Below, piece by piece: positions 50,689-60,260 of a stretch of DNA of 64,000 nt; positions within the stretch are counted from its first letter, which is position 1, and every line of letters begins with the position of its first letter. The translations under genes were made by a program, and so were the position numbers. Source of the stretch: Candidatus Roizmanbacteria bacterium CG_4_9_14_0_2_um_filter_35_15. GTDB lineage: Bacteria; Patescibacteriota; Microgenomatia; UBA1406; GWC2-37-13. The notes below the pieces were generated by a model. The model saw only the letters and a list, made by a program, of their open reading frames with translations. It was not told where the DNA came from and did not search any database. The stretch is from the NCBI GenBank assembly GCA_002788805.1, contig PFRZ01000009.1, positions 1,464-65,463 on the forward strand, in the 5' to 3' direction.

Positions 50689-52803
50689 ATGATCTTTAAA
50701 TCACTATATTATTTAGTCAACTTTTTCATCACTATTGGTGAAGTAACTCAACGCCTCATCATCTTTCCTTTTCAAATACTAACGAGAGCTTTAACTATTC
50801 TGATCAGGCGCTTAAAAGCTATCAAGGTTAGACTGCCGCTGCCAGAGATATCGCTTCGGGTTAAGTATTTTATTACCGGCAGTCTGGTTACTTTAATCAT
50901 TGTTTTTGCTAATAATTCGTATCTTTTTATTAAGTCGCTGCCCTCACCTTCTAACATTGGAAAAACCAACTATCCTTTGTCGACTCATATCTATGACCGC
51001 AATGGCAAACTTTTATACGAAATTTATCATGAGCAAAATCGGACTCCGGTGAGTCTAAAAAAACTGCCAAATTATGTGGCGCAGACGACCATCGCCATTG
51101 AAGATAAAGATTTTTATCGTCATAATGGTATTGCTTTGTTTTCCGGCATTTTCCGGGCGATCAAAGAAATGATGATCCATAAAAACCTTCAAGGAGGATC
51201 AACGATTACTCAACAACTGGTCAAAGCAGCTTTACTAACTCCAGAAAGGACTTGGGAGCGAAAGATAAAAGAAATTATTTTAGCTTTATGGACAGAAAGA
51301 ATTTACACTAAAGATCAAATATTGGAGATGTATCTCAATCAAGTTCCCTATGGCGGATCAGCTTATGGAATTGAAGAGGCAGGTAAAACTTATTTTGGTA
51401 AATCAGCCAAAGATCTGACGCTCGAGCAAGCGGCTTTATTGGCGGGTTTACCTCAAGCTCCATCTCTTTATTCTCCTTATATTAATCCTAAAGCGGCTTT
51501 GGAGAGGCGAAATGAAGTACTGGAGGCGATGTATAAACAGGGATACATTAAAGAAAGCTTAAATCTCAAATCTCAAATCTCAAATCTGGAAGTAATACCA
51601 CCGAAAACAGCAATTAGGGCGCCGCACTTTGTTTTTTATACTAAATCGCAGCTGGAATCATATTTCGGCATTTCGAAGGTAGAAGAAGGCGGGTTAAAAG
51701 TCTATACGACTTTGGATTTAGATATCCAAGAACAAGCAGAACAGATCTTAAGGGAAAAACTTGATAAGATAAATTATTTAAATGTAACCAACGGAGCCAT
51801 CCTCGTCACTCGTCCATCAACCGGAGAGATTTTAGCCATGGTTGGTTCAAAAGATTACTTTGAACAGCCATATGGCGCTTTTAACGTGACGACTGCCCAA
51901 AGACAGCCTGGATCTTCAATAAAACCAATCATGTATTCTTTGGCATTACAAAAAGGTTTTACAGCGGCGACTATTCTTGATGATTCACCGGTGGTCTTTA
52001 AGATACCCGGTGCTTCACCTTATCAGCCAGTCAATTACGATGGCAAATATCACGGAAAAATTCCTTTAAGATATGCTTTAGGCAATTCTTACAATATTCC
52101 GGCTGTACGTACTTTAGAAAAAGTCGGTGTTTCTGACTTTATCGACTACGCCAGTAAAATGGGAATCAGCACTTGGCAAGATAAGTCAAGATACGGACTG
52201 TCTTTAACTTTGGGTGGTGGTGAGGTAACGATGATTGATATGGCAGAAGCTTTTGGCGTCTTAGCTAATAATGGTTATAAATTACCAGAGAGTTACTTTA
52301 CGAAGATCGAAAATAGCAATGGTCAGATTATAAGAGAATACAAGCCATTTAAAATCAAAGAGATTGACAGCGGTATCTCCTATATTATTTCCGACATTTT
52401 ATCGGATAACTTTGCCAGGCAGTGGGCTTTTGGACCCTCTTCTTCTTTGGAAATCCCTGGTTATAAAGTTGCCGTCAAGACGGGAACGACTAATGATAAA
52501 AGAGACAACTGGACCATCGGCTATACACCGGATTTTTTAGTGGTAGTTTGGGTGGGAAATAATGACAATACAGCAATGAATCCTTATCTTACTTCAGGAA
52601 TAACGGGTGCTTCACCAATTTGGAATCGGGTAATGAGTTATCTTTTGAATAATTACTCAAACGGAAGTAAATGGTATGCAAAACCTGATAGTGTCGTAGA
52701 AAAGACTTGTTATTTTGGAAGACGAGAATACTTTATTAAAGGAACAGAAACTAAAGATAGATGTAGTCAGGAAGCGTTGGCGACACCGACGCCGAAACCA
52801 TAA
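50689..52803 (+). CDS. Bifunctional class A penicillin-binding protein (GT51 transglycosylase + transpeptidase)
   Basis: EDKDFYRHNGI, GGSTITQQLVK, RKIKE; SSIKP (SxxK), SYN, KTGTT. Confidence 0.9.
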   Translation: MIFKSLYYLVNFFITIGEVTQRLIIFPFQILTRALTILIRRLKAIKVRLPLPEISLRVKYFITGSLVTLIIVFANNSYLFIKSLPSPSNIGKTNYPLSTHIYDRNGKLLYEIYHEQNRTPVSLKKLPNYVAQTTIAIEDKDFYRHNGIALFSGIFRAIKEMMIHKNLQGGSTITQQLVKAALLTPERTWERKIKEIILALWTERIYTKDQILEMYLNQVPYGGSAYGIEEAGKTYFGKSAKDLTLEQAALLAGLPQAPSLYSPYINPKAALERRNEVLEAMYKQGYIKESLNLKSQISNLEVIPPKTAIRAPHFVFYTKSQLESYFGISKVEEGGLKVYTTLDLDIQEQAEQILREKLDKINYLNVTNGAILVTRPSTGEILAMVGSKDYFEQPYGAFNVTTAQRQPGSSIKPIMYSLALQKGFTAATILDDSPVVFKIPGASPYQPVNYDGKYHGKIPLRYALGNSYNIPAVRTLEKVGVSDFIDYASKMGISTWQDKSRYGLSLTLGGGEVTMIDMAEAFGVLANNGYKLPESYFTKIENSNGQIIREYKPFKIKEIDSGISYIISDILSDNFARQWAFGPSSSLEIPGYKVAVKTGTTNDKRDNWTIGYTPDFLVVVWVGNNDNTAMNPYLTSGITGASPIWNRVMSYLLNNYSNGSKWYAKPDSVVEKTCYFGRREYFIKGTETKDRCSQEALATPTPKP
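51559..51588 (+). repeat. Tandem AAATCTCA octamers in-frame in the PBP inter-domain linker
   Basis: ttaaatctcaaatctcaaatctcaaatctg encodes LNLKSQISNL. Confidence 0.8.
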
Positions 52804-52805
52804 TT

Positions 52806-52844
52806 AGTTTATAAAGTTCATAAAGTCTATAAAGTTTATAAAGT
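52806..52844. repeat. Family A array between the convergent PBP and serS genes, providing the serS stop codon
   Basis: agtttataaagttcataaagtctataaagtttataaagtag. Confidence 0.85.
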
Positions 52845-54104
52845 AGTTATTTCGTTTTTTATCTTATCAAATCCCACTAATTCTTGAAGGATTTTCGGAA
52901 TCAAAATACTGCCGTCTTTTTGCTGATAATTTTCCAGCAGGGCAATTAAGATGCGGGGTGAGGCAAGGGCGGTATTATTCAAAGAAAAACAATATTCAGT
53001 TGAGCCGTCTTTCTTCCGATATTTAATTTTCAGTCTTCTGGTTTGAAAGTCACCCATAATTGAATTAGACATAGTTTCTCCATAAGCCTGACGTGACGGC
53101 ATCCAGGTTTCTGTGTCGTATTTTTTCATCTGGGGTTCGCCCATATCTCCGGTACACATTATCATTACTCGGTAGGGAAGACCTAAATCTTGTAAAATCT
53201 CTTCGCAGTTTGCTTGCAGTTCTTCGTGAAGTTTTTTAGCTTCTTCAATATTATTTTTAGCGATAATTACCTGTTCAACCTTCCAAAATTCATGAAGCCG
53301 GTATAGACCTTTAGTATCTTTTCCATAAGCGCCTGCTTCTTTTCTGAAACAAGGAGAAAAAGCGACGAACTTTTTCGGCAGATCTTTTTCATTCAAAATT
53401 TCTCCGGAATAATATGAAGTAACTGGTTGTTCAGCTGTACCTGCCAAATAAGCGTCCTCATCATTTAATTTATAAGTATCTTGTTCGCCCCAGGGAAACT
53501 GACCGCAGCCAAAAAGAGACAAGCTTTTTATGACTGCTGGAGCAATAATTGGAAGATAATCTTTCTTAATAAGCTTGTTAAAGACATAAAAAAATAAGGC
53601 AAAGTGAAGAATCGCTGCTTCATTTTTCAAAAAATAACCTCTAAAGCCGGAAATTTTGGCGCCTCGTTCTAAGTCAATAAGATCAAGAGCTTGTCCTAAT
53701 TCGATATGAGATTTAGGTTTGAAATCGAACCGAGGAATCTTACCCCATTTTCTGATTTCTTTATTTCCAGTAGCATCTTTACTGATTGGAACTTCTGGTA
53801 ATGGGACATTTGGGACAAATGAGACTAATGAATCTAATTGGGTTTGAATTTTAGTCAGATCGTCTTCGATTTTTTTAAGTTCTTCTTTAATTTGTCTGCC
53901 TCTAACAGAACCTTCGCCGGAGTGGGGTTTACCTTGTTTAGCAAGTTTATTTCTTTCTTCACGGAGGACTTGAGCTTGTTGGATTAGTTTTCGTCTTTGA
54001 TCATCAAGAGAAAGTATTTTGTCCAAATCAACCTGGCGGCCTTTGTTTTTAGCCGCTTGTAAAACTTTTTCTTTGTTATTTCGAATAAAATCGAGAGATA
54101 GCAT
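52836..54104 (-). CDS. serS: Serine--tRNA ligase
   Basis: N-terminal coiled-coil, GFRGYFLKNE, LAGTAEQP, SPCFRKEAG, NNTALASPR. Confidence 0.95.
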   Translation of the reverse strand: MLSLDFIRNNKEKVLQAAKNKGRQVDLDKILSLDDQRRKLIQQAQVLREERNKLAKQGKPHSGEGSVRGRQIKEELKKIEDDLTKIQTQLDSLVSFVPNVPLPEVPISKDATGNKEIRKWGKIPRFDFKPKSHIELGQALDLIDLERGAKISGFRGYFLKNEAAILHFALFFYVFNKLIKKDYLPIIAPAVIKSLSLFGCGQFPWGEQDTYKLNDEDAYLAGTAEQPVTSYYSGEILNEKDLPKKFVAFSPCFRKEAGAYGKDTKGLYRLHEFWKVEQVIIAKNNIEEAKKLHEELQANCEEILQDLGLPYRVMIMCTGDMGEPQMKKYDTETWMPSRQAYGETMSNSIMGDFQTRRLKIKYRKKDGSTEYCFSLNNTALASPRILIALLENYQQKDGSILIPKILQELVGFDKIKNEITTL

Positions 54105-54114
54105 AGTTAAAATA

Positions 54115-54750
54115 TCATATCAAATCTTTAATTCTTTTTGTTAACCTTTTCAACGCCTTTAATCTATGATTAACCTGCTGGTGTTCTTCTTCAGTTAGTT
54201 CTTCATAATATTTATTAAATTTATCAACTATAAATAAACCCCGGAAAGGGTAACCATTGGTCGGGCGGCCAGTAGGTTTTTCAGCGATGTGTCCTTTGAT
54301 TTTTTCCTGTTCAAAGATAGTTTGGTCACCCTGAGGGTGTCCAGAAGGTAAATAAAACGTGACACAGGTTTCCAAATAGGCGATTCTTTTTGAGCCCGTA
54401 CAACCGCGTAGGTTGGATAGAGTATAGTTTATTAACTCTTCATCGCTGGCTTCATATCCAGGCCAACGCCGTGATTTAACTCCTGGAGCGTTATCTAAAT
54501 AGGGGATTATTAGTCCTCCGTCGTCGGCGATAGTTGGTAGGCTGGTTAGACGTCCATAAAACTTGGTTTTTATTTCGGAATTTTCTTGGAAAGTTTTTCC
54601 GGTTTCTTCTGGCTCTTTCTCCACTCCAACGTCGTTTAAGTTAAGTAGTTTTACTCCGAATCCCTCTAATTCTTTTAACCCAATCATTATTTCTTCTAAT
54701 TTAGATTGATTAGTAGTGGCAATTAAAATTTTTCTCATTGATTTTTTCAT
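54115..54750 (-). CDS. rdgB: Non-canonical purine NTP pyrophosphatase (RdgB/HAM1 family)
   Basis: ILIATTNQSKLEE, ETGKTFQENS, ADDGGL, FRGLF. Confidence 0.85.
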   Translation of the reverse strand: MKKSMRKILIATTNQSKLEEIMIGLKELEGFGVKLLNLNDVGVEKEPEETGKTFQENSEIKTKFYGRLTSLPTIADDGGLIIPYLDNAPGVKSRRWPGYEASDEELINYTLSNLRGCTGSKRIAYLETCVTFYLPSGHPQGDQTIFEQEKIKGHIAEKPTGRPTNGYPFRGLFIVDKFNKYYEELTEEEHQQVNHRLKALKRLTKRIKDLI

Positions 54751-54771
54751 AAATTTGTAATAATATTATAT

Positions 54772-55917
54772 ATGTTTTCTTCAAGAAATGGTTTCACTGG
54801 TATTACTTTTGACGACGTTCTTCTTCTGCCTGGGTATACTGATTTTGAGAGAAAGGAAATTGATCTACAGACTAATTTGACAAGGAAAATTAAATTACGA
54901 ATTCCTCTAGTTTCTTCTCCAATGGATACGGTGACTGAATCAAAGTTGGCAATAAGCTTGGCCAGCTTAGGCGGTGCCGGGGTAATTCATCGCAATCTAA
55001 CTATTAATGATCAAGCAAAAGAGGTCTTGAAAGTGAAAAGAAAGAATTTATTAGTGGGAGCGGCTATTGGCGTAAATCAAAGCCATGAAGAAAGATTGAA
55101 GGCTTTAGTTAAAGCCCAGGTTGATTTTATTGTTATCGACTCGGCTCATGGTTTTACCAAAAAGATTATTGAAACGGTGAGAAATATTAAAAAAACCTAT
55201 CCTCATCTTCAGCTCATCGCTGGTAATGTAGCCACTTATGAAGGAGCTCTAGCTTTGATTAAAGCTGGGGTTGATGGTTTAAGAGTCGGCATGGGGCCAG
55301 GTGCCATCTGTATGACGAGGATTGTCTCTGGTATGGGAGTACCTCAGATTTCTGCTATAAAAGAAACCGCCAAAGCAGGGATTAAATATAAAGTTCCAGT
55401 GATTGCCGATGGCGGCATCAAATATTCCGGAGACATAGTCAAAGCTTTAGCCGCTGGTGCTGATAGTGTGATGACAGGAAGCTTTTTTGCTTCAACGATT
55501 GAGTCGCCGGGAAAGGTCATCAAACTTAAAAGAGAACAAGTACCGAGTCGTTTCTTAAGCATTTTAAAAACAAAGCAAAATATATATATTTTTAAAGAAT
55601 ATCGAGGAATGGGTTCGGTGGGAGCGATGAAAAAAGGCGCGGAAATTAAATCCGAGGGTGAGTTTCATGGAAAAAATTATCAAGATAGAGTATTAGTGGC
55701 GGAAGGAGTGGAAGGATATGTGCCAATTAAAGGAACAGTTAAGAGTGTTGTTGATCAAGTTTTAGGCGGGATTAAATCAGGCATGTATTATGTGGGTGCG
55801 AAAAATATTAAACAACTACATCAAAAAGGCCGTTTTATTCCTATTACTCAAGCATCTTTAATAGAAAGCCATCCTCATAGCATTTTGATCAGTAACGCGG
55901 GCAGTAATTACAGCTAA
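54772..55917 (+). CDS. guaB: IMP dehydrogenase family protein lacking the CBS subdomain
   Basis: [48 protein letters not shown]; 381 aa. Confidence 0.8.
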
Positions 55918-58226
55918 ACGATTCCCGCCAGTTCAACCTTTCCTCCGCAGTATTTAGTAATAATTTCAATTGATTCTTTTAAAGTTTTTTCTACTTGTTT
56001 TCTGGTTATCTCATAAATTCCATCAATGTTAATTAAAATATTTTTCGTTTCTTCAGTGACGGCAGTCCTCTGGGCGTCACGGTAGTTGAAATAAATATTG
56101 TATCCTCCGACTTGATCAAAGTAGGCGAGATCATTCGATTTATATTTAGTTGGTTCTTTATCTCCTAAGAGTAAAATTTCTTCATCATGTTTTGGAAATC
56201 TTAAAACAGTCGGGAATTGGATTTGATCAAGGTCAAAGGCACCCGAGGAAATATGATGTTTCATGACAATTAAATTATAGGCGTCAACACAGGTATTAAT
56301 TTCATAAAGACCTTTCTTAAGGGCAATCCTTCTTAAAAGTGCTTCGGGTGACGGTCTTTTAGAATGCCAGTCAAGACCCATTTCTTTGTATATTTTTCGA
56401 TAACTCTGAATTTCCGGATAACTTCCGATCATCTCATTAGTTAAGTTTTCTTGAGACTTAACAAATTCCTGAATTTCTTTCGCCAAACCAAGATCGTTTT
56501 TCTTTATTATTACTCCTTTTATAACCGCAATACCGATATTAAGCGAAGGATATTTTTCCAGCATTGATTTATCAATAGAAAAGATTTCCGGATTATTAAG
56601 AATCGGGAAGAGGTGAACAGTTTTTTCTTCTTTTGTTTTTTCGCTTTTATTAATAAGGCCAACTACTTTTTCCACCCCTAATTGTTTGATCAAATCCCCG
56701 GCTTTTGGCCCGTAAGGTTTTCCTGTCAAAGCATTATAGAAAGCATGAAACGCTTCTTTGGGTTTTACGTTGGTTTCTTTGATGGCATCGAAAATAAGTT
56801 GTTGAATTTGCTGTTTATCTTCGGTTTTTAATCTGTATAAATTATCAGCAAGTTTTTTAAGAAATTCTTTTTGCTTTGGAGACAATAGCAGCTTTGGTGC
56901 GGCCGCACCAGAGTTGTTATTCTGTTTTTTTCCAGCGTATTTTTCAAGATATATTCTTGCATATTTTATTCTTTCTTCAACAAGATTTTTTTCCTCTAAG
57001 GATAGGGAACTCCTCTTTTGGTTTTTAAAAAAATCTGAAACGTTTTTCTTATTCTCTAACAGATTAACCATCGTTCGGAAGCGAGGTAGGAATATTCGCG
57101 ACTTCGGGAGCGGTTTAACTTCAGATAACTCAATTATTCGGGCAAAGTCAAGCGTGACTTCTCCGGCTTTTCCTTTAGGCAACTTATTCTCAATTTTTAA
57201 AAAATAAGAGTTCATCAGTCTGTCATAGTCATCAAAGAGATTGAGGATAGTATCGCCATATGGATTAAAGTCAAGATGAGTTGAGATAGGAGTTCTAACT
57301 TGCATAAAACGGAAGACATCTGGTGGTAGGATAGAGGAAACTTCTTTAGCCGAGGAGCCGATTCCTTTAGAAGAAGACATTTTTCGTCCGCCAATGGTAA
57401 ACCATTCATAACCACCCATAGCATCAGGAGGTTCAATTTTAAGAATTTCTTTACAGAAATGAACGGCCATATCGTAAGATCCTCCGGAAGACATATGGTC
57501 TTTTCCTGATGATTCAATGGTAACGCCGATGACTTTCCAATGGGCCGGCCAGTCAAGCTTCCAAGGCAGTTTGCCGTTTTCCCTTGTTGGCTCTATCTTT
57601 CCTTCGTGACCGCAACCGCGAGCCCAGTCAACCATTTGCGGTTCACAGCGGTAATATACATATTTACCATCCCATTTGTAAGAATTGGTTGTGCCGATTT
57701 TTCCGCATTTTTCACATATCGGATTATAGGGAAACCAATTCGGGGGGCGTTCTTTTTTAACCACTCTTTTATAAGCGTCCCGAACAATATCGACCTTATC
57801 AAGAAACAATTTAATTATCTCATTCATTTTTCCGGACCGGTGAAGTTCTGATGACCAAATAATTTGCGGGTGGCAGTTGATGGAATTGAAAACTCCAATA
57901 AATTCTTTTGCGTAATAATCAGCAAAAGATTTAAATCCTAGCTTAGGCGAGGGGATTTTGTACAATGGCTGGCCCATATATTTGCCCCATTTATTTTTAT
58001 CTAAATAAGCAGGCATTCCATCCATCGGATCCATGTCATTAAAAACATAGGAGAATTTTGCCTTAACGCCGATTTCTTTGAGAGCTTTGTAGATTAAATC
58101 GTGGACGATGACACCCCGGAGAGAGCCAACGTGAATCCTTCCCGAAGGCGTCTTCATATCATCGACCCACTCAAGAGAAAAATGACGTTCTTTAAGTCTT
58201 TTTGCTTCGCGGTCTGCCCAGATCAT
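55914..58226 (-). CDS. lysS: Class I lysine--tRNA ligase fused to a C-terminal B3/B4 (PheRS-beta-like, COG3382-type) domain
   Basis: PSGRIHVGSLRG (HIGH), RKMSSSKG (KMSKS), CEKCGK zinc knuckle. The C-terminal ~230 aa has SPEALLRRIALKKGLYEINTCVDAYNLI .. GAFDLD. Confidence 0.85.
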   Translation of the reverse strand: MIWADREAKRLKERHFSLEWVDDMKTPSGRIHVGSLRGVIVHDLIYKALKEIGVKAKFSYVFNDMDPMDGMPAYLDKNKWGKYMGQPLYKIPSPKLGFKSFADYYAKEFIGVFNSINCHPQIIWSSELHRSGKMNEIIKLFLDKVDIVRDAYKRVVKKERPPNWFPYNPICEKCGKIGTTNSYKWDGKYVYYRCEPQMVDWARGCGHEGKIEPTRENGKLPWKLDWPAHWKVIGVTIESSGKDHMSSGGSYDMAVHFCKEILKIEPPDAMGGYEWFTIGGRKMSSSKGIGSSAKEVSSILPPDVFRFMQVRTPISTHLDFNPYGDTILNLFDDYDRLMNSYFLKIENKLPKGKAGEVTLDFARIIELSEVKPLPKSRIFLPRFRTMVNLLENKKNVSDFFKNQKRSSLSLEEKNLVEERIKYARIYLEKYAGKKQNNNSGAAAPKLLLSPKQKEFLKKLADNLYRLKTEDKQQIQQLIFDAIKETNVKPKEAFHAFYNALTGKPYGPKAGDLIKQLGVEKVVGLINKSEKTKEEKTVHLFPILNNPEIFSIDKSMLEKYPSLNIGIAVIKGVIIKKNDLGLAKEIQEFVKSQENLTNEMIGSYPEIQSYRKIYKEMGLDWHSKRPSPEALLRRIALKKGLYEINTCVDAYNLIVMKHHISSGAFDLDQIQFPTVLRFPKHDEEILLLGDKEPTKYKSNDLAYFDQVGGYNIYFNYRDAQRTAVTEETKNILINIDGIYEITRKQVEKTLKESIEIITKYCGGKVELAGIV

Positions 58227-58260: not shown

Positions 58261-59553
58261 TTATTTTTTTCGTCGTTGATGACGAACAAGATTTTTCGGT
58301 ACAATATTAATTGTATTTGAGTCTGACAATAATTCACTAACACCTATTATATTTTTCTGGTCATTAGGGTCAATGTACTTTTCAATATTTGCCGGTGGTT
58401 CATAGGTATAGTTTGACGGTTCAGTGTAATTGCAGATGAGTCCTTCATAATTTCTTAATACCCATTTACTATGACCCTGGGACAAGACATAGTTCGGCAT
58501 TAATGGTATTTTTCCACCACCACCGATTCCGTCAATACAAAAGACAGGAACGGCAAAACCACTGGTATGGCCCCGAAGATATTCGATAATTTCGATTCCC
58601 TCGGAGACTCGAGTGCGAAAATGTTCAATTCCTTGGCTAAGGTCGCATTGATAGATGTAATAAGGTCGAACGCGGTTAGCAACTAGTAGCTTAACCAGAT
58701 TTTTCATCACTAACGGATGATTATTGACTCTTCGTAGTAAAACAGACTGGTTACCTAAAGGAATCCCGGCATCAGCTAATAGATTACAAGCTTTGGCTGA
58801 TAGATCAGTTATCTCTTTTGGATGATTAAAATGAGTATTAATCCACAAAGGATGATATTTTTTCAACATCTGACAAAGATCATCGGTAATTCGCATCGGG
58901 CAGGTAACTGGTACTCTTGTGCCGATTCTTATTATTTCTACATGCTTAATTTCACGGAAAAGTTTGATGATTTTTTCCAAGTAATCGGTTGGTAAAGTCA
59001 AAGGATCGCCGCCGGAGATAAGAATGTCGCGGACGGTTTTAGTTTTTTTTACATACTCGGCCGCTTTTAAAATTTTTAGCCAAGGAGTTGGTAGATCAGT
59101 TTCGCCGGCGTGTCTTCGTCTGGTGCAGTGGCGGCAGTACATGGCACATTGGTAAGTAACATAGATAATTAATCTGTCTGGATAGCGATGAGTTAAAACT
59201 CCTTCGAGTCCTTTTACTGGGCAATCTTCTTCTTCATGAAGAGGGTCGGAAAAATCGCTTTTGGAAATATTGGTTTCTGAAATAGTCGGTACAGCCTGTA
59301 ATTTGATTGGGCAAAATTTATCATTGATATCAATTTGCGAAAGGTAATAAGGAGTAATCGCCATTCGTAAGATCTTTAATGATCTTTGAATAGTTTTAGT
59401 CTCTTTATCAGTCAGATATAGAATTTTTTGTAAAATTTTAGGTTCAGTAACACGATTTTTAATTTGCCATCGATAGTCTAACCAATCCTTATCGAAAACC
59501 TTTTTCCAATAACTGTTTTTTTTTGCTTTTTGAAAAAAACGAAATTTATCCAT
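58261..59553 (-). CDS. kamA: Lysine 2,3-aminomutase (KamA family radical SAM/PLP enzyme)
   Basis: CAMYCRHCTRRR (CxxxCxxC), ILISGGDPL, RIGTR. The start was set at MDKFRFF to avoid overlap with the upstream gene. Confidence 0.85.
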   Translation of the reverse strand: MDKFRFFQKAKKNSYWKKVFDKDWLDYRWQIKNRVTEPKILQKILYLTDKETKTIQRSLKILRMAITPYYLSQIDINDKFCPIKLQAVPTISETNISKSDFSDPLHEEEDCPVKGLEGVLTHRYPDRLIIYVTYQCAMYCRHCTRRRHAGETDLPTPWLKILKAAEYVKKTKTVRDILISGGDPLTLPTDYLEKIIKLFREIKHVEIIRIGTRVPVTCPMRITDDLCQMLKKYHPLWINTHFNHPKEITDLSAKACNLLADAGIPLGNQSVLLRRVNNHPLVMKNLVKLLVANRVRPYYIYQCDLSQGIEHFRTRVSEGIEIIEYLRGHTSGFAVPVFCIDGIGGGGKIPLMPNYVLSQGHSKWVLRNYEGLICNYTEPSNYTYEPPANIEKYIDPNDQKNIIGVSELLSDSNTINIVPKNLVRHQRRKK

Positions 59554-59563
59554 AGATAATAAA

Positions 59564-60220
59564 TTATAAACAAATAATAGAATTATTATCAGCAGTATCA
59601 AATATATATTCTCCGATCGGCTCGGAAGAAATTAAAGACAAACTGCTTACTTTAAAATATCTTATTTTATAGTATTCTGGATGTTTTGTGAAAAAAGAAA
59701 AAGTATAGATATTTTTTCCATCGGATAAACCAATATTAAGAGCCTGAATTTCTTTAGAATTCTTTTTAAGAATGTCTCCCACTTTTTCTAAAGCTTCACT
59801 TGGTTTTTTTGATCGGAGATTTTTTTTAAGTAAAAACCAGATTTTTTCTGCTCCAATTTTTCCCGGAATAGAAAGGGAAACTTTTTTCAAAAGTCCGTTA
59901 AAAACAAATATATAATCATTACTAAGATAGGGTTGATTAAACTGGATATTATTTTTATGATGGGGAAAAGAAGCGCTTCGAACATGAATGGAAAATAAAT
60001 TTGTTTTTGGAAAGTTTTGAAAAGTACTTCTGTCTTGCCAAATAGGCTTTATTGATCGATAGAGTTTCCATGAACTATTCTCATACCAGGAAAATCCCCA
60101 GCCATCCCCTTGCCAGTCGCCATCATAAGTTTTGTTTTTTTGTGCCATGATAGAAAATTGTTCAAGAATCGTTTTTGGTTTGATTGGATTTTCTGATTTT
60201 GCTAAAAGAAATCTACACAT
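59564..60220 (-). CDS. Class II (Ntn) glutamine amidotransferase-fold protein, EgtC/YafJ-like gamma-glutamyl amidohydrolase candidate
   Basis: N-terminal MCR (Cys2 nucleophile), GDGWG, IHVRSAS, VFNG, SSEP. Confidence 0.75.
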   Translation of the reverse strand: MCRFLLAKSENPIKPKTILEQFSIMAQKNKTYDGDWQGDGWGFSWYENSSWKLYRSIKPIWQDRSTFQNFPKTNLFSIHVRSASFPHHKNNIQFNQPYLSNDYIFVFNGLLKKVSLSIPGKIGAEKIWFLLKKNLRSKKPSEALEKVGDILKKNSKEIQALNIGLSDGKNIYTFSFFTKHPEYYKIRYFKVSSLSLISSEPIGEYIFDTADNNSIICL

Positions 60221-60226
60221 AAAAAG

Positions 60227-60260
60227 AAATATTAAATATTAAAAATCAAATATCAAAAAT
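60227..60260 (-). repeat. Family D repeat, inverted copy, overlapping the lysJ/argD stop codon
   Basis: aaatattaaatattaaaaatcaaatatcaaaaat is approximately the reverse complement of 37717-37750. Confidence 0.7.

What the first reader, a model, noticed from the sequence alone, without database searches (positions are those of the whole stretch)
55914..56620. Class I LysRS fused to a B3/B4 (PheRS-beta editing-like, COG3382-type) domain
After a complete class I LysRS core (HIGH = HVGS, KMSKS = KMSSS, zinc knuckle, anticodon-binding helices), ~230 extra residues follow.

They carry the hallmark segment RPSPEALLRRIALKKGLYEINTCVDAYNLI..GAFDLD of stand-alone B3/4-domain proteins. That fold is the one used by PheRS-beta for editing and tRNA binding.

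I am not aware of this fusion being described. It could provide trans/cis editing, for example against ornithine or beta-lysine made by the adjacent genes, or it could provide extra tRNA affinity.
Basis: partly seen in the sequence, partly recalled or inferred. Interest (0 to 1): 0.6.

Follow-up and report, generated by a model that had tools for sequence, protein, structure and literature searches.

The report
Lysyl-tRNA synthetase with tethered CtdA-like deacylase
The only lysine-charging enzyme of this tiny uncultured (Roizmanbacteria, CPR) bacterium carries a complete, strongly conserved copy of a tRNA "proofreading" module of the CtdA type. Lysyl-tRNA synthetases are not known to have such a module, and no paper I could find describes this fusion.

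Summary
Window 55914-58226 (- strand) is one uninterrupted 770-aa gene. It comprises a complete class I LysRS (residues 1-527), a variable ~20-residue linker and a 223-residue B3/4 module.

- **Not an artefact:** hundreds of independent assemblies, including a closed genome, carry the same architecture.
- **What the module is:** it is CtdA-type, not PheRS-type. A family profile hits the canavanyl-tRNA(Arg) deacylase CtdA at E 1e-38, against 1e-14 for PheRS-beta. The AlphaFold model (pLDDT 96) superposes on CtdA at TM 0.8 over its full length.
- **Pocket:** the CtdA residues essential for activity are kept (N651, G662). The specificity positions differ (E118→F664, C166→N710, Q173→D717, I189→N733) and are 96-100% conserved in 122 fusions.
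- **Conservation:** the module is more conserved than the synthetase core.
- **Other fusions:** the same module type is fused to the unrelated class II LysRS. Characterised CtdA groups with modules fused to ArgRS.
- **Best reading (about 0.6):** a tethered post-transfer editing deacylase for mischarged tRNA-Lys. The substrate is unknown.
the adjacent aminomutase is lineage-specific. A LysW/aminoadipate lysine operon upstream recurs in two families.

The parts
55914..58226 (-). lysS-B3/4 gene: 770-aa class I lysyl-tRNA synthetase with a C-terminal CtdA-like B3/4 module (stop codon at 55914-55916).
   Evidence: It is a single ORF. Pfam finds PF01921, PF19269 and PF03483. NCBIfam TIGR00467 scores above its cut-off. 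It is the only LysRS found in the 91%-complete genome.
57186..58223 (-). Class I LysRS catalytic (Rossmann) domain, residues 2-347. It holds HIGH (H32-S35), KMSSS (K282-S286) and the zinc knuckle (C171, C174, C194, C205).
   Evidence: PF01921 matches at E 8e-85. H32, G34, K282, S284 and S286 are invariant, and C171, C174, C194 and C205 are at least 90% conserved, in 35 fused homologues.
56646..57179 (-). Helical anticodon-binding / C-terminal part of the LysRS core, residues ~350-527.
   Evidence: PF19269 Anticodon_2 matches residues 446-522. TIGR00467 covers residues 1-526. The full-length model is helical here.
56586..56645 (-). Variable linker, residues ~528-547.
   Evidence: Median pairwise identity is 22% here, against 66% for the core and 70% for the module, in 122 fusions. 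pLDDT is below 50 at residues 530-535, and pTM is only 0.59 for the whole chain.
55917..56585 (-). CtdA-like B3/4 module, residues 548-770. The Pfam B3_4 match covers residues 609-759, nt 55950-56402.
   Evidence: PF03483 scores 81 bits. A family profile hits CtdA 9f7e and 9mkl at E 1e-38. The AF2 model has pLDDT 96.3. Foldseek gives TM 0.79-0.82 to CtdA over 233 columns.
56028..56276 (-). Predicted aminoacyl pocket codons:
- N651 (56274-56276)
- G662 (56241-56243)
- F664 (56235-56237)
- N710 (56097-56099)
- D717 (56076-56078)
- N733 (56028-56030)

These are the equivalents of S. enterica CtdA N105, G116, E118, C166, Q173 and I189.
   Evidence: The mapping comes from an alignment with the CtdA sequences printed. 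Conservation in 122 fusions is 96-100%. The roles of the CtdA residues are taken from PMC12449066.
58261..59601 (-). Lysine 2,3-aminomutase (KamA/AblA type), immediately upstream of lysS and co-directional with it.
   Evidence: TIGR03820 scores 548 bits against a cut-off of 525, with LAM_C and Radical_SAM domains. It is absent from the other genomes that carry the fusion.
59564..60220 (-). GATase_4 / EgtC-like Ntn-hydrolase, a conserved member of the upstream operon.
   Evidence: PF13230 matches at E 2e-9. Orthologues at 40-41% identity occupy the same operon position in G120, G084 and G150.
60253..64000 (-). lysJ (60253-61416), lysZ (61426-62226), lysY/argC (62232-63272) and lysX (63269 to past the window end at 64117). 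lysW follows on the contig just outside the window.
   Evidence: NCBIfam scores: [LysW]-aminoadipate kinase 299 bits against a cut-off of 223, LysX_arch 312 against 276, argC 392 against 234, and an ArgD/LysJ-family transaminase. LysW ends in ...EDWGE and matches PF21344 at 47 bits against a cut-off of 27.

Best explanation
**What it is.** The gene encodes the cell's lysyl-tRNA synthetase (class I) with a complete CtdA-family aminoacyl-tRNA deacylase tethered to its C-terminus by a short, variable linker.

**Proposed mechanism (inferred).**
1. The synthetase core charges tRNA-Lys.
2. When a near-cognate amino acid is attached instead of lysine, the 3' end of the tRNA enters the pocket of the tethered B3/4 module. 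This may happen while the tRNA is still held by the enzyme, or directly after release.
3. The module hydrolyses the ester bond and spares Lys-tRNA-Lys.

**What is shown and what is inferred.**
- *Pocket.* It keeps the CtdA residues needed for hydrolysis (Asn651 = N105, Gly662 = G116). The side-chain-reading positions are different, near-invariant residues (Phe664, Asn710, Asp717, Asn733). The target is therefore not canavanine.
- *Target class (inferred).* It is probably a cationic lysine look-alike. Candidates are Arg, which E. coli LysRS is known to mischarge and cannot clear, lysine antimetabolites such as thialysine, ornithine and beta-lysine.
- *Shown:* architecture, family membership, fold, pocket conservation, and recurrence of the module on both LysRS classes.
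- *Inferred:* hydrolytic activity, action on tRNA-Lys, and the identity of the substrate.
For: 1. The synthetase half is intact and is the only LysRS in the genome. The class II-type hits elsewhere are an EpmA-like protein, an AspRS fragment and HisRS. A tRNA-Lys(CUU) gene is present.
2. The module belongs to the CtdA family. The family profile hits CtdA at E 1.3e-38 and PheRS-beta at 2.4e-14. The model has pLDDT 96.3 and matches CtdA 9mkl/9f7e at TM 0.79-0.82 over the full length, against about 0.6 for PheRS-beta. CtdA is an experimentally proven aminoacyl-tRNA deacylase (PMC10018355, PMC12449066).
3. N105A and G116H/W inactivate CtdA. Their equivalents are kept in 122/122 and 120/122 fusions. 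The four specificity positions are 96-98% conserved but differ from CtdA.
4. Purifying selection is strong. Median identity is 70.4% for the module, 65.6% for the core and 22% for the linker, and the module is the more conserved part in 79% of 7381 pairs.
5. The partner tracks the clade.
   - In the domain tree, C-terminal fusions to class I and to the unrelated class II LysRS interleave in one clade. An example is P0129 (class II) with P0130 (class I) at 98% support.
   - Both characterised CtdAs fall across a 99% branch with all twelve B3/4-ArgRS fusions, which keep the CtdA-type E118 and mostly C166 (8 of 12).
6. A split form exists. A class II LysRS-HD gene is followed 6 nt later by a separate B3/4 gene.
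7. Known LysRS lacks post-transfer editing and leaves Arg-, Thr- and Met-tRNA-Lys uncleared (PMC5370406). There is therefore an unfilled need.
Against: - No activity has been measured for any member of this clade.
- CtdA-2-type proteins are uncharacterised and may have another function.
- The module hangs off the anticodon-binding end of the enzyme, far from the catalytic site. The full-length model gives no confident inter-domain geometry (pTM 0.59), so a classical CCA-flip between two fixed sites is not supported.
- Only 9 of the 36 class I LysRS genes in the class sample are fused. Fused and unfused cores are interspersed in the tree, so the module is dispensable in close relatives.
- No active-site difference separates fused from unfused cores, so there is no sign that the fused enzymes are sloppier.
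- A few LysRS fusions lie on the CtdA/ArgRS side of the tree with CtdA-like pockets. The partner-clade rule is therefore not absolute.
Confidence: 0.6

Rival explanations
1. The module is a tRNA-binding or tRNA-handling appendage with no hydrolytic role. It would raise affinity for tRNA-Lys, as appended domains do in other synthetases.
For: - The B3/4 fold contacts tRNA in PheRS.
- The module sits next to the anticodon-binding domain.
- CPR enzymes often carry odd appendages.
- The module is dispensable in close relatives.
Against: - The near-invariant residues are the pocket residues, including the Asn and Gly that CtdA needs for catalysis, not a surface patch.
- Some class II fusions carry a separate PF01588 tRNA_bind domain as well as the B3/4 module, so tRNA binding is supplied independently there.
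- The closest characterised relative is an enzyme.
Confidence: 0.15
2. The module is an active deacylase, but for a tRNA other than tRNA-Lys (for example canavanyl-tRNA-Arg, like CtdA). On this reading it is fused to LysRS only for co-expression.
For: The only characterised family members act on tRNA-Arg (PMC10018355, PMC12449066). A few LysRS fusions have CtdA-like pockets.
Against: - The window's pocket differs from CtdA at all four specificity positions, including C166 and Q173, which set CtdA's specificity.
- Modules fused to ArgRS keep the CtdA-type pocket and group with CtdA. The window type groups with modules fused to both LysRS classes.
- Recruitment by two non-homologous LysRS types points to the lysine system.
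Confidence: 0.08
3. The module is tied to the neighbouring lysine metabolism. It would remove an endogenous by-product of the adjacent genes from tRNA-Lys: beta-lysine from the aminomutase, or ornithine from the LysW pathway.
For: - lysS-B3/4 is the last gene of a co-directional lysW-X-Y-Z-J operon in the window and in G120, G084 and G150. That is 4 of 10 fusion genomes against 10 of 151 overall (hypergeometric p = 0.0017, not corrected for phylogeny).
- The window adds a lysine 2,3-aminomutase directly upstream.
- An EpmA-like gene elsewhere in the genome shows that beta-lysine is probably used in this cell.
Against: - Six of 10 fusion genomes have no LysX, and nine of 10 have no KamA-family gene.
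- The closest relatives (L006, L007, L008) have other upstream genes.
- The four positive genomes represent only two families.
- E. coli LysRS edits ornithine at its catalytic site and forms no Orn-tRNA-Lys (PMC5370406).
Confidence: 0.12
4. The fusion is an assembly or gene-calling artefact (a missed stop or frameshift).
For: None was found. Reads could not be inspected.
Against: The frame is continuous. The same architecture occurs in hundreds of independent assemblies, including a closed chromosome.
Confidence: 0.01

Closest known systems
CtdA, canavanyl-tRNA(Arg) deacylase (free-standing B3/4 protein; PDB 9f7e, 9mkl; PMC10018355, PMC12449066, bioRxiv 10.1101/2024.11.30.626143)
   Same: - Same family by profile (E 1e-38).
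- Same full-length fold, including the CtdA-specific helical insert (TM 0.8 over 233 of 234 columns).
- The essential Asn105 and Gly116 equivalents are kept.
   Different: - It is fused to a synthetase instead of free-standing.
- Sequence identity is 16-17%.
- The specificity positions differ: E118→F, C166→N, Q173→D, I189→N.
- It lies across a 99%-supported branch from CtdA in the domain tree.
- The partner system is lysine, not arginine.
PheRS beta-subunit B3/B4 editing domain (Tyr/m-Tyr-tRNA-Phe hydrolysis)
   Same: It has the same Pfam family (PF03483) and the same basic fold. It is likewise an editing module built into a synthetase. The Asn (E. coli N254) and Phe (F267) equivalents are shared.
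   Different: - It is much more distant (profile E 1e-14, TM about 0.6).
- H265, A312, G318 and E334 are not conserved.
- It lacks the PheRS-specific helices and has the CtdA insert instead.
- It is a terminal tethered domain, not one embedded in a multi-domain subunit.
Editing by known LysRS (class II, E. coli): pre-transfer cyclisation of homocysteine, homoserine and ornithine at the catalytic site
   Same: It has the same biological purpose: keeping non-lysine amino acids out of Lys codons.
   Different: Known LysRS editing is tRNA-independent, occurs in the synthetic site and has no dedicated domain. Mischarged Arg-, Thr- and Met-tRNA-Lys are not deacylated (PMC5370406). Here a separate hydrolase-type module is appended.
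Editing folds that occur both free and fused (AlaX/AlaRS, ProXp-YbaK/ProRS INS, ThrRS N2 and its free homologues)
   Same: The evolutionary pattern is the same: one deacylase fold is found free-standing, as an adjacent gene and as a synthetase domain.
   Different: In those families the fused form belongs to the synthetase whose errors it corrects and was known first. Here the fold's classical host is PheRS, while the fusions are to LysRS (both classes) and ArgRS.
B3/4-ArgRS fusions found here (e.g. P0167, P0186, P0188)
   Same: They follow the same principle: a CtdA-family module joined to the synthetase of a basic amino acid.
   Different: The module is N-terminal and has a CtdA-type pocket (E118 in all twelve, C166 in 8 of 12). 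It groups with characterised CtdA.

Membership tests
Class I lysyl-tRNA synthetase (PF01921 / TIGR00467) | Whole-protein score above the curated cut-offs. | tested here: met
   PF01921 scores 285 bits against 27. TIGR00467 scores 355 bits against 147.6 over residues 1-526.
Class I lysyl-tRNA synthetase (PF01921 / TIGR00467) | HIGH and KMSKS class I signature motifs are intact. | tested here: met
   The motifs are HVGS at 32-35 and KMSSS at 282-286. H32, G34, K282, S284 and S286 are invariant in 35 homologues.
Class I lysyl-tRNA synthetase (PF01921 / TIGR00467) | It acts as the cell's LysRS, with no other LysRS present. | tested here: met
   There is one PF01921 gene. The PF00152 hits are an EpmA-like protein, an AspRS fragment and HisRS. 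Caveat: the genome is 91% complete.
Class I lysyl-tRNA synthetase (PF01921 / TIGR00467) | Lysylation of tRNA-Lys. | not testable with these tools
   This needs an aminoacylation assay.
Pfam B3_4 (PF03483) | Score above the gathering threshold. | tested here: met
   The score is 81 bits against 29.3, with profile positions 2-172 of 174 matched.
CtdA family (free-standing B3/4 deacylases, COG3382 type) | Sequence-profile membership that is closer to CtdA than to PheRS-beta. | tested here: met
   E is 1.3e-38 (9f7e) and 6.6e-38 (9mkl), against 2.4e-14 for the best PheRS-beta.
CtdA family (free-standing B3/4 deacylases, COG3382 type) | Full CtdA fold, including its helical insert. | tested here: met
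   Foldseek gives TM 0.79-0.82 over 232-233 aligned columns of 234. The model has pLDDT 96.3.
CtdA family (free-standing B3/4 deacylases, COG3382 type) | Residues essential for activity (N105, G116). | tested here: met
   N651 is kept in 122/122 fusions and G662 in 120/122. The mutational data are in PMC12449066.
CtdA family (free-standing B3/4 deacylases, COG3382 type) | Stand-alone protein of about 230 aa. | tested here: not met
   It is fused to the C-terminus of LysRS.
Canavanyl-tRNA(Arg) deacylase proper (CtdA-1) | Canavanine-specificity residues E118, C166, Q173 (or E) and I189. | tested here: not met
   The window has F664, N710, D717 and N733. It lies across a 99% branch from both CtdA structures.
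Canavanyl-tRNA(Arg) deacylase proper (CtdA-1) | Hydrolysis of an aminoacyl-tRNA ester. | not testable with these tools
   This needs a deacylation assay.
PheRS-beta editing domain | Tyr-editing pocket residues (E. coli R244, N254, Y255, H265, F267, A312, G318, E334). | tested here: not met
   Of the six aligned pocket positions, only the N254 and F267 equivalents are shared. H265→G, A312→N, G318→D and E334→N (residue list).

The most novel reading that the evidence does not exclude
This would be the first dedicated post-transfer editing domain of a lysyl-tRNA synthetase.

A distinct branch of the CtdA deacylase family (pocket N-G-F-N-D-N) would be specialised for tRNA-Lys. It has been captured repeatedly by both non-homologous LysRS classes, while the sister branch is captured by ArgRS.

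Lysine, and in cis arginine, would then join the amino acids whose decoding is proofread by a hydrolytic module.

In the window's lineage the fused gene closes a LysW/aminoadipate lysine operon. The edited amino acid might therefore be a by-product of the cell's own lysine metabolism.
Probability: 0.5. Interest if true: 0.8.

Novelty: new variant of a known kind. Interest (0 to 1): 0.7.

Why it matters
Reviews describe LysRS editing as pre-transfer only, at the catalytic site, with no deacylation of mischarged Arg-, Thr- or Met-tRNA-Lys (PMC5370406); I found no report of a separate LysRS editing domain. A conserved hydrolase-type module on LysRS of both classes, with a sister module on ArgRS, would matter in three ways:

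- It would extend post-transfer proofreading to the basic amino acids.
- It would give the uncharacterised branch of the CtdA family a function.
- It would show that genome-reduced CPR bacteria invest in fidelity against a specific, still unknown lysine analogue.

The idea is directly testable with standard aminoacylation and deacylation assays. The module could also serve as a genomic marker for lysine-analogue metabolism, in the way other tRNA deacylases have been used (PMC13149037).

Tried and rejected
- **Read support for the junction.** I relied on conservation instead.
- **Beta-lysine as the general target.** A KamA-family gene is present in 18 of 151 class genomes, but in only 1 of the 10 with a window-type module (p = 0.73). 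Rejected as a general explanation.
- **Are fused LysRS cores sloppier?** I compared 15 fused with 20 unfused class I cores. No clean discriminating column emerged. The best were R30 next to HIGH (15/15 against 6/20) and W80 (12/15 against 3/20), both weak.
- **A riboswitch or T-box controlling the operon.** No Rfam family reaches its gathering score anywhere in the window, and there are no tRNA genes in it.
- **Genomic context of the free-standing relatives nearest the LysRS clade.** P0159 lies on an 872-bp contig and is uninformative. P0152 gave the split LysRS-HD | B3/4 arrangement.
- **Inter-domain geometry.** No distance argument could be made.
- **Literature.** Five searches and term searches ("fused", "fusion", "LysRS", "lysyl") in the main text of three CtdA papers and the deacylase-mining paper found no mention of a LysRS or ArgRS fusion. 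The string "B3/B4" cannot be searched with the tool, so a mention elsewhere is not excluded.
- **Direct sequence search of the module against the PDB.** It gave only marginal hits (E 0.01-0.5). A family profile was needed.


Full report
**1. What is in the sequence**

Window 55914-58226 (- strand) is one open frame of 770 codons.
- Residues 1-527 are a complete class I lysyl-tRNA synthetase. Pfam tRNA-synt_1f covers residues 2-347 (E 8e-85) and Anticodon_2 covers 446-522. NCBIfam lysS_arch scores 355 bits against a cut-off of 148.
- The HIGH motif (H32-V-G-S), KMSKS motif (K282-M-S-S-S) and four zinc-knuckle cysteines are present. They are invariant or nearly so in homologues.
- After a ~20-residue linker come 223 residues that match Pfam B3_4 (PF03483) at 81 bits, against a gathering score of 29.

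**2. It is not an artefact, and it is the cell's working LysRS**

- A search with the C-terminal part, restricted by design to long proteins, returned 740 hits. The best 120 are almost all 760-790 aa, carry both Pfam domains, are 66-88% identical in the module, and are mostly labelled Candidatus Roizmanbacteria or Patescibacteria.
- One lies on a closed 1.10-Mb chromosome and others on contigs of 0.5-1.1 Mb.
- The window's genome (0.74 Mb, 59 contigs, 91% complete) has a single PF01921 gene and no class II LysRS. The three PF00152 hits are an EpmA/GenX-like protein, an AspRS fragment and HisRS. A tRNA-Lys(CUU) gene is present.

**3. What the extra module is**

- A direct sequence search against PDB chains was marginal.
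- A profile of the window's module plus 52 free-standing relatives hit the canavanyl-tRNA(Arg) deacylase CtdA at E 1.3e-38 (9f7e) and 6.6e-38 (9mkl). The best PheRS-beta chain scored 2.4e-14.
- An AlphaFold2 model of residues 537-770 has mean pLDDT 96.3. Foldseek ranks the CtdA structures first, with TM 0.79-0.82 over 232-233 of 234 columns. PheRS-beta B3/4 domains follow at TM about 0.6.
- CtdA is the free-standing B3/4 protein shown in 2023-2025 to hydrolyse canavanyl-tRNA(Arg) (PMC10018355; PMC12449066).
- The module is therefore a full CtdA-type unit, including CtdA's own helical insert. It is not a copy of the PheRS editing domain.

**4. The pocket**

I aligned the CtdA sequences printed with 122 family members. 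S. enterica CtdA positions map onto the window as follows:

| CtdA | N105 | G116 | E118 | C166 | Q173 | I189 |
|---|---|---|---|---|---|---|
| Window | N651 | G662 | F664 | N710 | D717 | N733 |

- In CtdA, N105A and G116H/W abolish activity, C166 tunes canavanine against arginine, and Q173G inactivates.
- In 122 full-length class I fusions the six positions are N 122, G 120, F 119, N 117, D 120 and N 118.
- The catalytic scaffold is thus kept, and a different, fixed set of side-chain-reading residues replaces CtdA's.

**5. Selection**

Across 7381 pairs of fusions, median identity is 70.4% in the module, 65.6% in the synthetase core and 22% in the linker. The module is the more conserved half in 79% of pairs. 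Against family f38 the window shows 62-68% identity in the module but only 44-47% in the core. This is not a decaying appendage.

**6. The wider pattern**

An exhaustive search of 1.84 billion representatives found 1907 relatives of the module. The best 150 show these architectures:
- class I LysRS-B3/4;
- class II LysRS-B3/4, some with extra HD, DUF2000 or tRNA_bind domains;
- B3/4-class II LysRS;
- B3/4-class I LysRS;
- B3/4-ArgRS (twelve);
- tandem B3/4 forms;
- about 70 free-standing proteins.

The class II partners are bona fide LysRS, with TIGR00499 scores of 448-555 bits against a cut-off of 428.

In a maximum-likelihood tree of 122 modules, a 99% branch separates two sides.
- One side holds a clade in which C-terminal fusions to class I and class II LysRS interleave. 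An example is P0129 with P0130 at 98%.
- The other side holds all ArgRS fusions, most free-standing proteins and both characterised CtdAs. The nearest neighbours of the CtdAs are ArgRS fusions.
- ArgRS-fused modules keep the CtdA-type E118 (all twelve) and mostly C166 (8 of 12).
- A few LysRS fusions with CtdA-like pockets lie on the CtdA side, so the rule is strong but not absolute.

A split version also exists. A class II LysRS-HD gene is followed 6 nt later by a separate B3/4 gene.

Two non-homologous LysRS types have recruited the same module type. That is hard to explain unless the module works on the lysine system.

**7. Distribution in the class**

- In 151 genomes sampled from the window's class, 36 have a class I LysRS and 9 of those are fused. 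A tenth genome (G008) has a window-type module in a 739-aa frame without PF01921.
- In the tree of LysRS cores, fused and unfused enzymes are interspersed, and well-supported branches force at least five changes. In the window's own family, two unfused enzymes branch below six fused ones.
- The module is therefore gained or lost often, and close relatives can live without it.

**8.

Upstream and co-directional in the window lie the following genes. lysW is on the contig just past the window end.
- lysW (…EDWGE; PF21344);
- lysX (LysX_arch, 312 bits against 276);
- lysY/argC;
- lysZ ([LysW]-aminoadipate kinase, 299 bits against 223);
- lysJ;
- a GATase_4/EgtC-like hydrolase;
- a lysine 2,3-aminomutase (AblA model, 548 bits against 525);
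- then lysS-B3/4.

Comparison with other genomes:
- The same lysW-X-Y-Z-J-GATase_4 … lysS-B3/4 arrangement, without the aminomutase and with a homocitrate-synthase-like gene, occurs in three genomes of another family.
- LysX above its cut-off is found in 10 of 151 genomes and in 4 of the 10 with the module (p = 0.0017, uncorrected for phylogeny; two families).
- KamA-family genes occur in 18 of 151 genomes but in only the window's genome among those ten.
- The closest relatives carry other genes upstream. These are an ArgE/DapE-family M20 deacylase, overlapping lysS by 4 nt in L008, and weak AblB-like paralogues. L007 has GreA there instead.

The beta-lysine idea therefore fails as a general explanation. 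A link to the cell's own lysine-family metabolism is suggestive but partial.

**9. Mechanism and rivals**

*Best reading (about 0.6).* This is a tethered post-transfer editing deacylase for tRNA-Lys, and its substrate is unknown.
- E. coli LysRS mischarges tRNA-Lys with Arg, Thr, Met and others and cannot deacylate them. It disposes of ornithine, homocysteine and homoserine before transfer (PMC5370406). The unprotected errors are thus post-transfer ones.
- The full-length model gives confident domains but no confident mutual arrangement (pLDDT 90, pTM 0.59, linker pLDDT below 50).
- I therefore infer a flexible "tethered trans-editing" mode, not a fixed two-site shuttle.

*Rivals.*
- A non-catalytic tRNA-binding appendage (0.15).
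- A deacylase for another tRNA (0.08).
- Editing specifically of a by-product of the neighbouring operon (0.12). This is a sub-case of the main reading.
- An artefact (0.01).

**10. Novelty**

- The main texts of the three CtdA papers contain no instance of "fused", "fusion", "LysRS" or "lysyl", so they do not mention synthetase fusions. In the 2026 deacylase-guided mining paper the same term search found nothing on synthetase fusions, and its mining section is about the AlaX family.
- No search returned a paper on a LysRS with an editing domain.
- The proteins are in public databases, named only "lysine--tRNA ligase".
- Earlier notes of this scan on other genomes reach the same reading. They are not independent evidence, but I re-derived their main claims here.
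- I classify the finding as a new variant of a known kind: a known deacylase family and a known principle (cis-editing), on a synthetase not known to have it.

**11. What this window adds**

- The operon context: the LysW/aminoadipate lysine genes end in lysS-B3/4, conserved in two families.
- A negative co-occurrence test for the aminomutase.
- Placement of the characterised CtdAs with the ArgRS fusions.
- The finding that fused and unfused LysRS cores show no active-site difference.

Noticed in passing
window 58261-64000 (-) and the contig just beyond (lysX ends at 64117; lysW at about 64.1-64.3 kb): A LysW-carrier, alpha-aminoadipate-type lysine biosynthesis operon (lysW-X-Y-Z-J) sits in a 0.74-Mb CPR genome, a group usually thought to lack amino-acid biosynthesis. 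No homocitrate-synthase-like gene was found in this genome, although relatives G120, G084 and G150 have one inside the operon. The window's pathway may therefore start from imported aminoadipate or glutamate.
   Followed up: partly
window 59564-60220 (-): A 218-aa GATase_4/EgtC-like Ntn-hydrolase is a conserved member of the LysW operon (40-41% identical orthologues in the same position in three genomes of another family). G084 has no M20 peptidase anywhere. This protein is therefore a candidate non-orthologous replacement for LysK, the [LysW]-gamma-lysine hydrolase.
   Followed up: partly
window 58261-59601 (-); genome contig C26:10514-11494: A lysine 2,3-aminomutase of the AblA/KamA type (not the EpmB type) is inserted between the operon and lysS. 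An EpmA/GenX-like gene scores just under its cut-off (268 against 287 bits) elsewhere in the genome. The pair may carry out EF-P beta-lysylation with a KamA-type mutase. No AblB acetyltransferase was seen next to the mutase.
   Followed up: partly
L006:5759-8985 and L008:6847-9004 (closest relatives): Directly upstream of lysS-B3/4 these genomes carry an ArgE/DapE-family M20 deacylase and one or two paralogous 325-365-aa proteins. The deacylase overlaps lysS by 4 nt in L008. The L006 325-aa paralogue has weak similarity to beta-lysine N-acetyltransferase AblB (39 bits, far below the cut-off); the other two gave no family hit. This is a second, different lysine-family neighbourhood.
   Followed up: partly
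proteins P0167, P0175, P0186, P0188, P0192, P0207, P0215, P0227, P0267, P0269: Arginyl-tRNA synthetases carry an N-terminal CtdA-type B3/4 module (two tandem modules in P0175). They keep the canavanine-type residues and group with characterised CtdA, so they look like cis-editing ArgRS. I found no description of these either.
   Followed up: partly
proteins P0134, P0137, P0151; P0002; locus L036: - Class II LysRS-B3/4 fusions carry further C-terminal HD or DUF2000 domains, or an internal tRNA_bind domain.
- One Roizmanbacteria class I LysRS (P0002, 1077 aa) has two tandem B3/4 modules.
- In L036 the B3/4 protein is a separate gene 6 nt after a class II LysRS-HD gene.
   Followed up: partly
window 50689-55917: The downstream neighbourhood (IMP dehydrogenase, Ham1-like NTP pyrophosphatase, SerRS, class A penicillin-binding protein) is largely syntenic with the relatives' lysS loci: L007 and L008 have Ham1, SerRS and the PBP, and L006 has IMPDH, Ham1 and SerRS. 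The upstream side varies.
   Followed up: yes
genome contig C26:2164-6187: Two OTCase-family genes flank an M20 peptidase gene a few kb from the EpmA-like gene. This may be an ornithine/arginine-related cluster. I did not analyse it.
   Followed up: no
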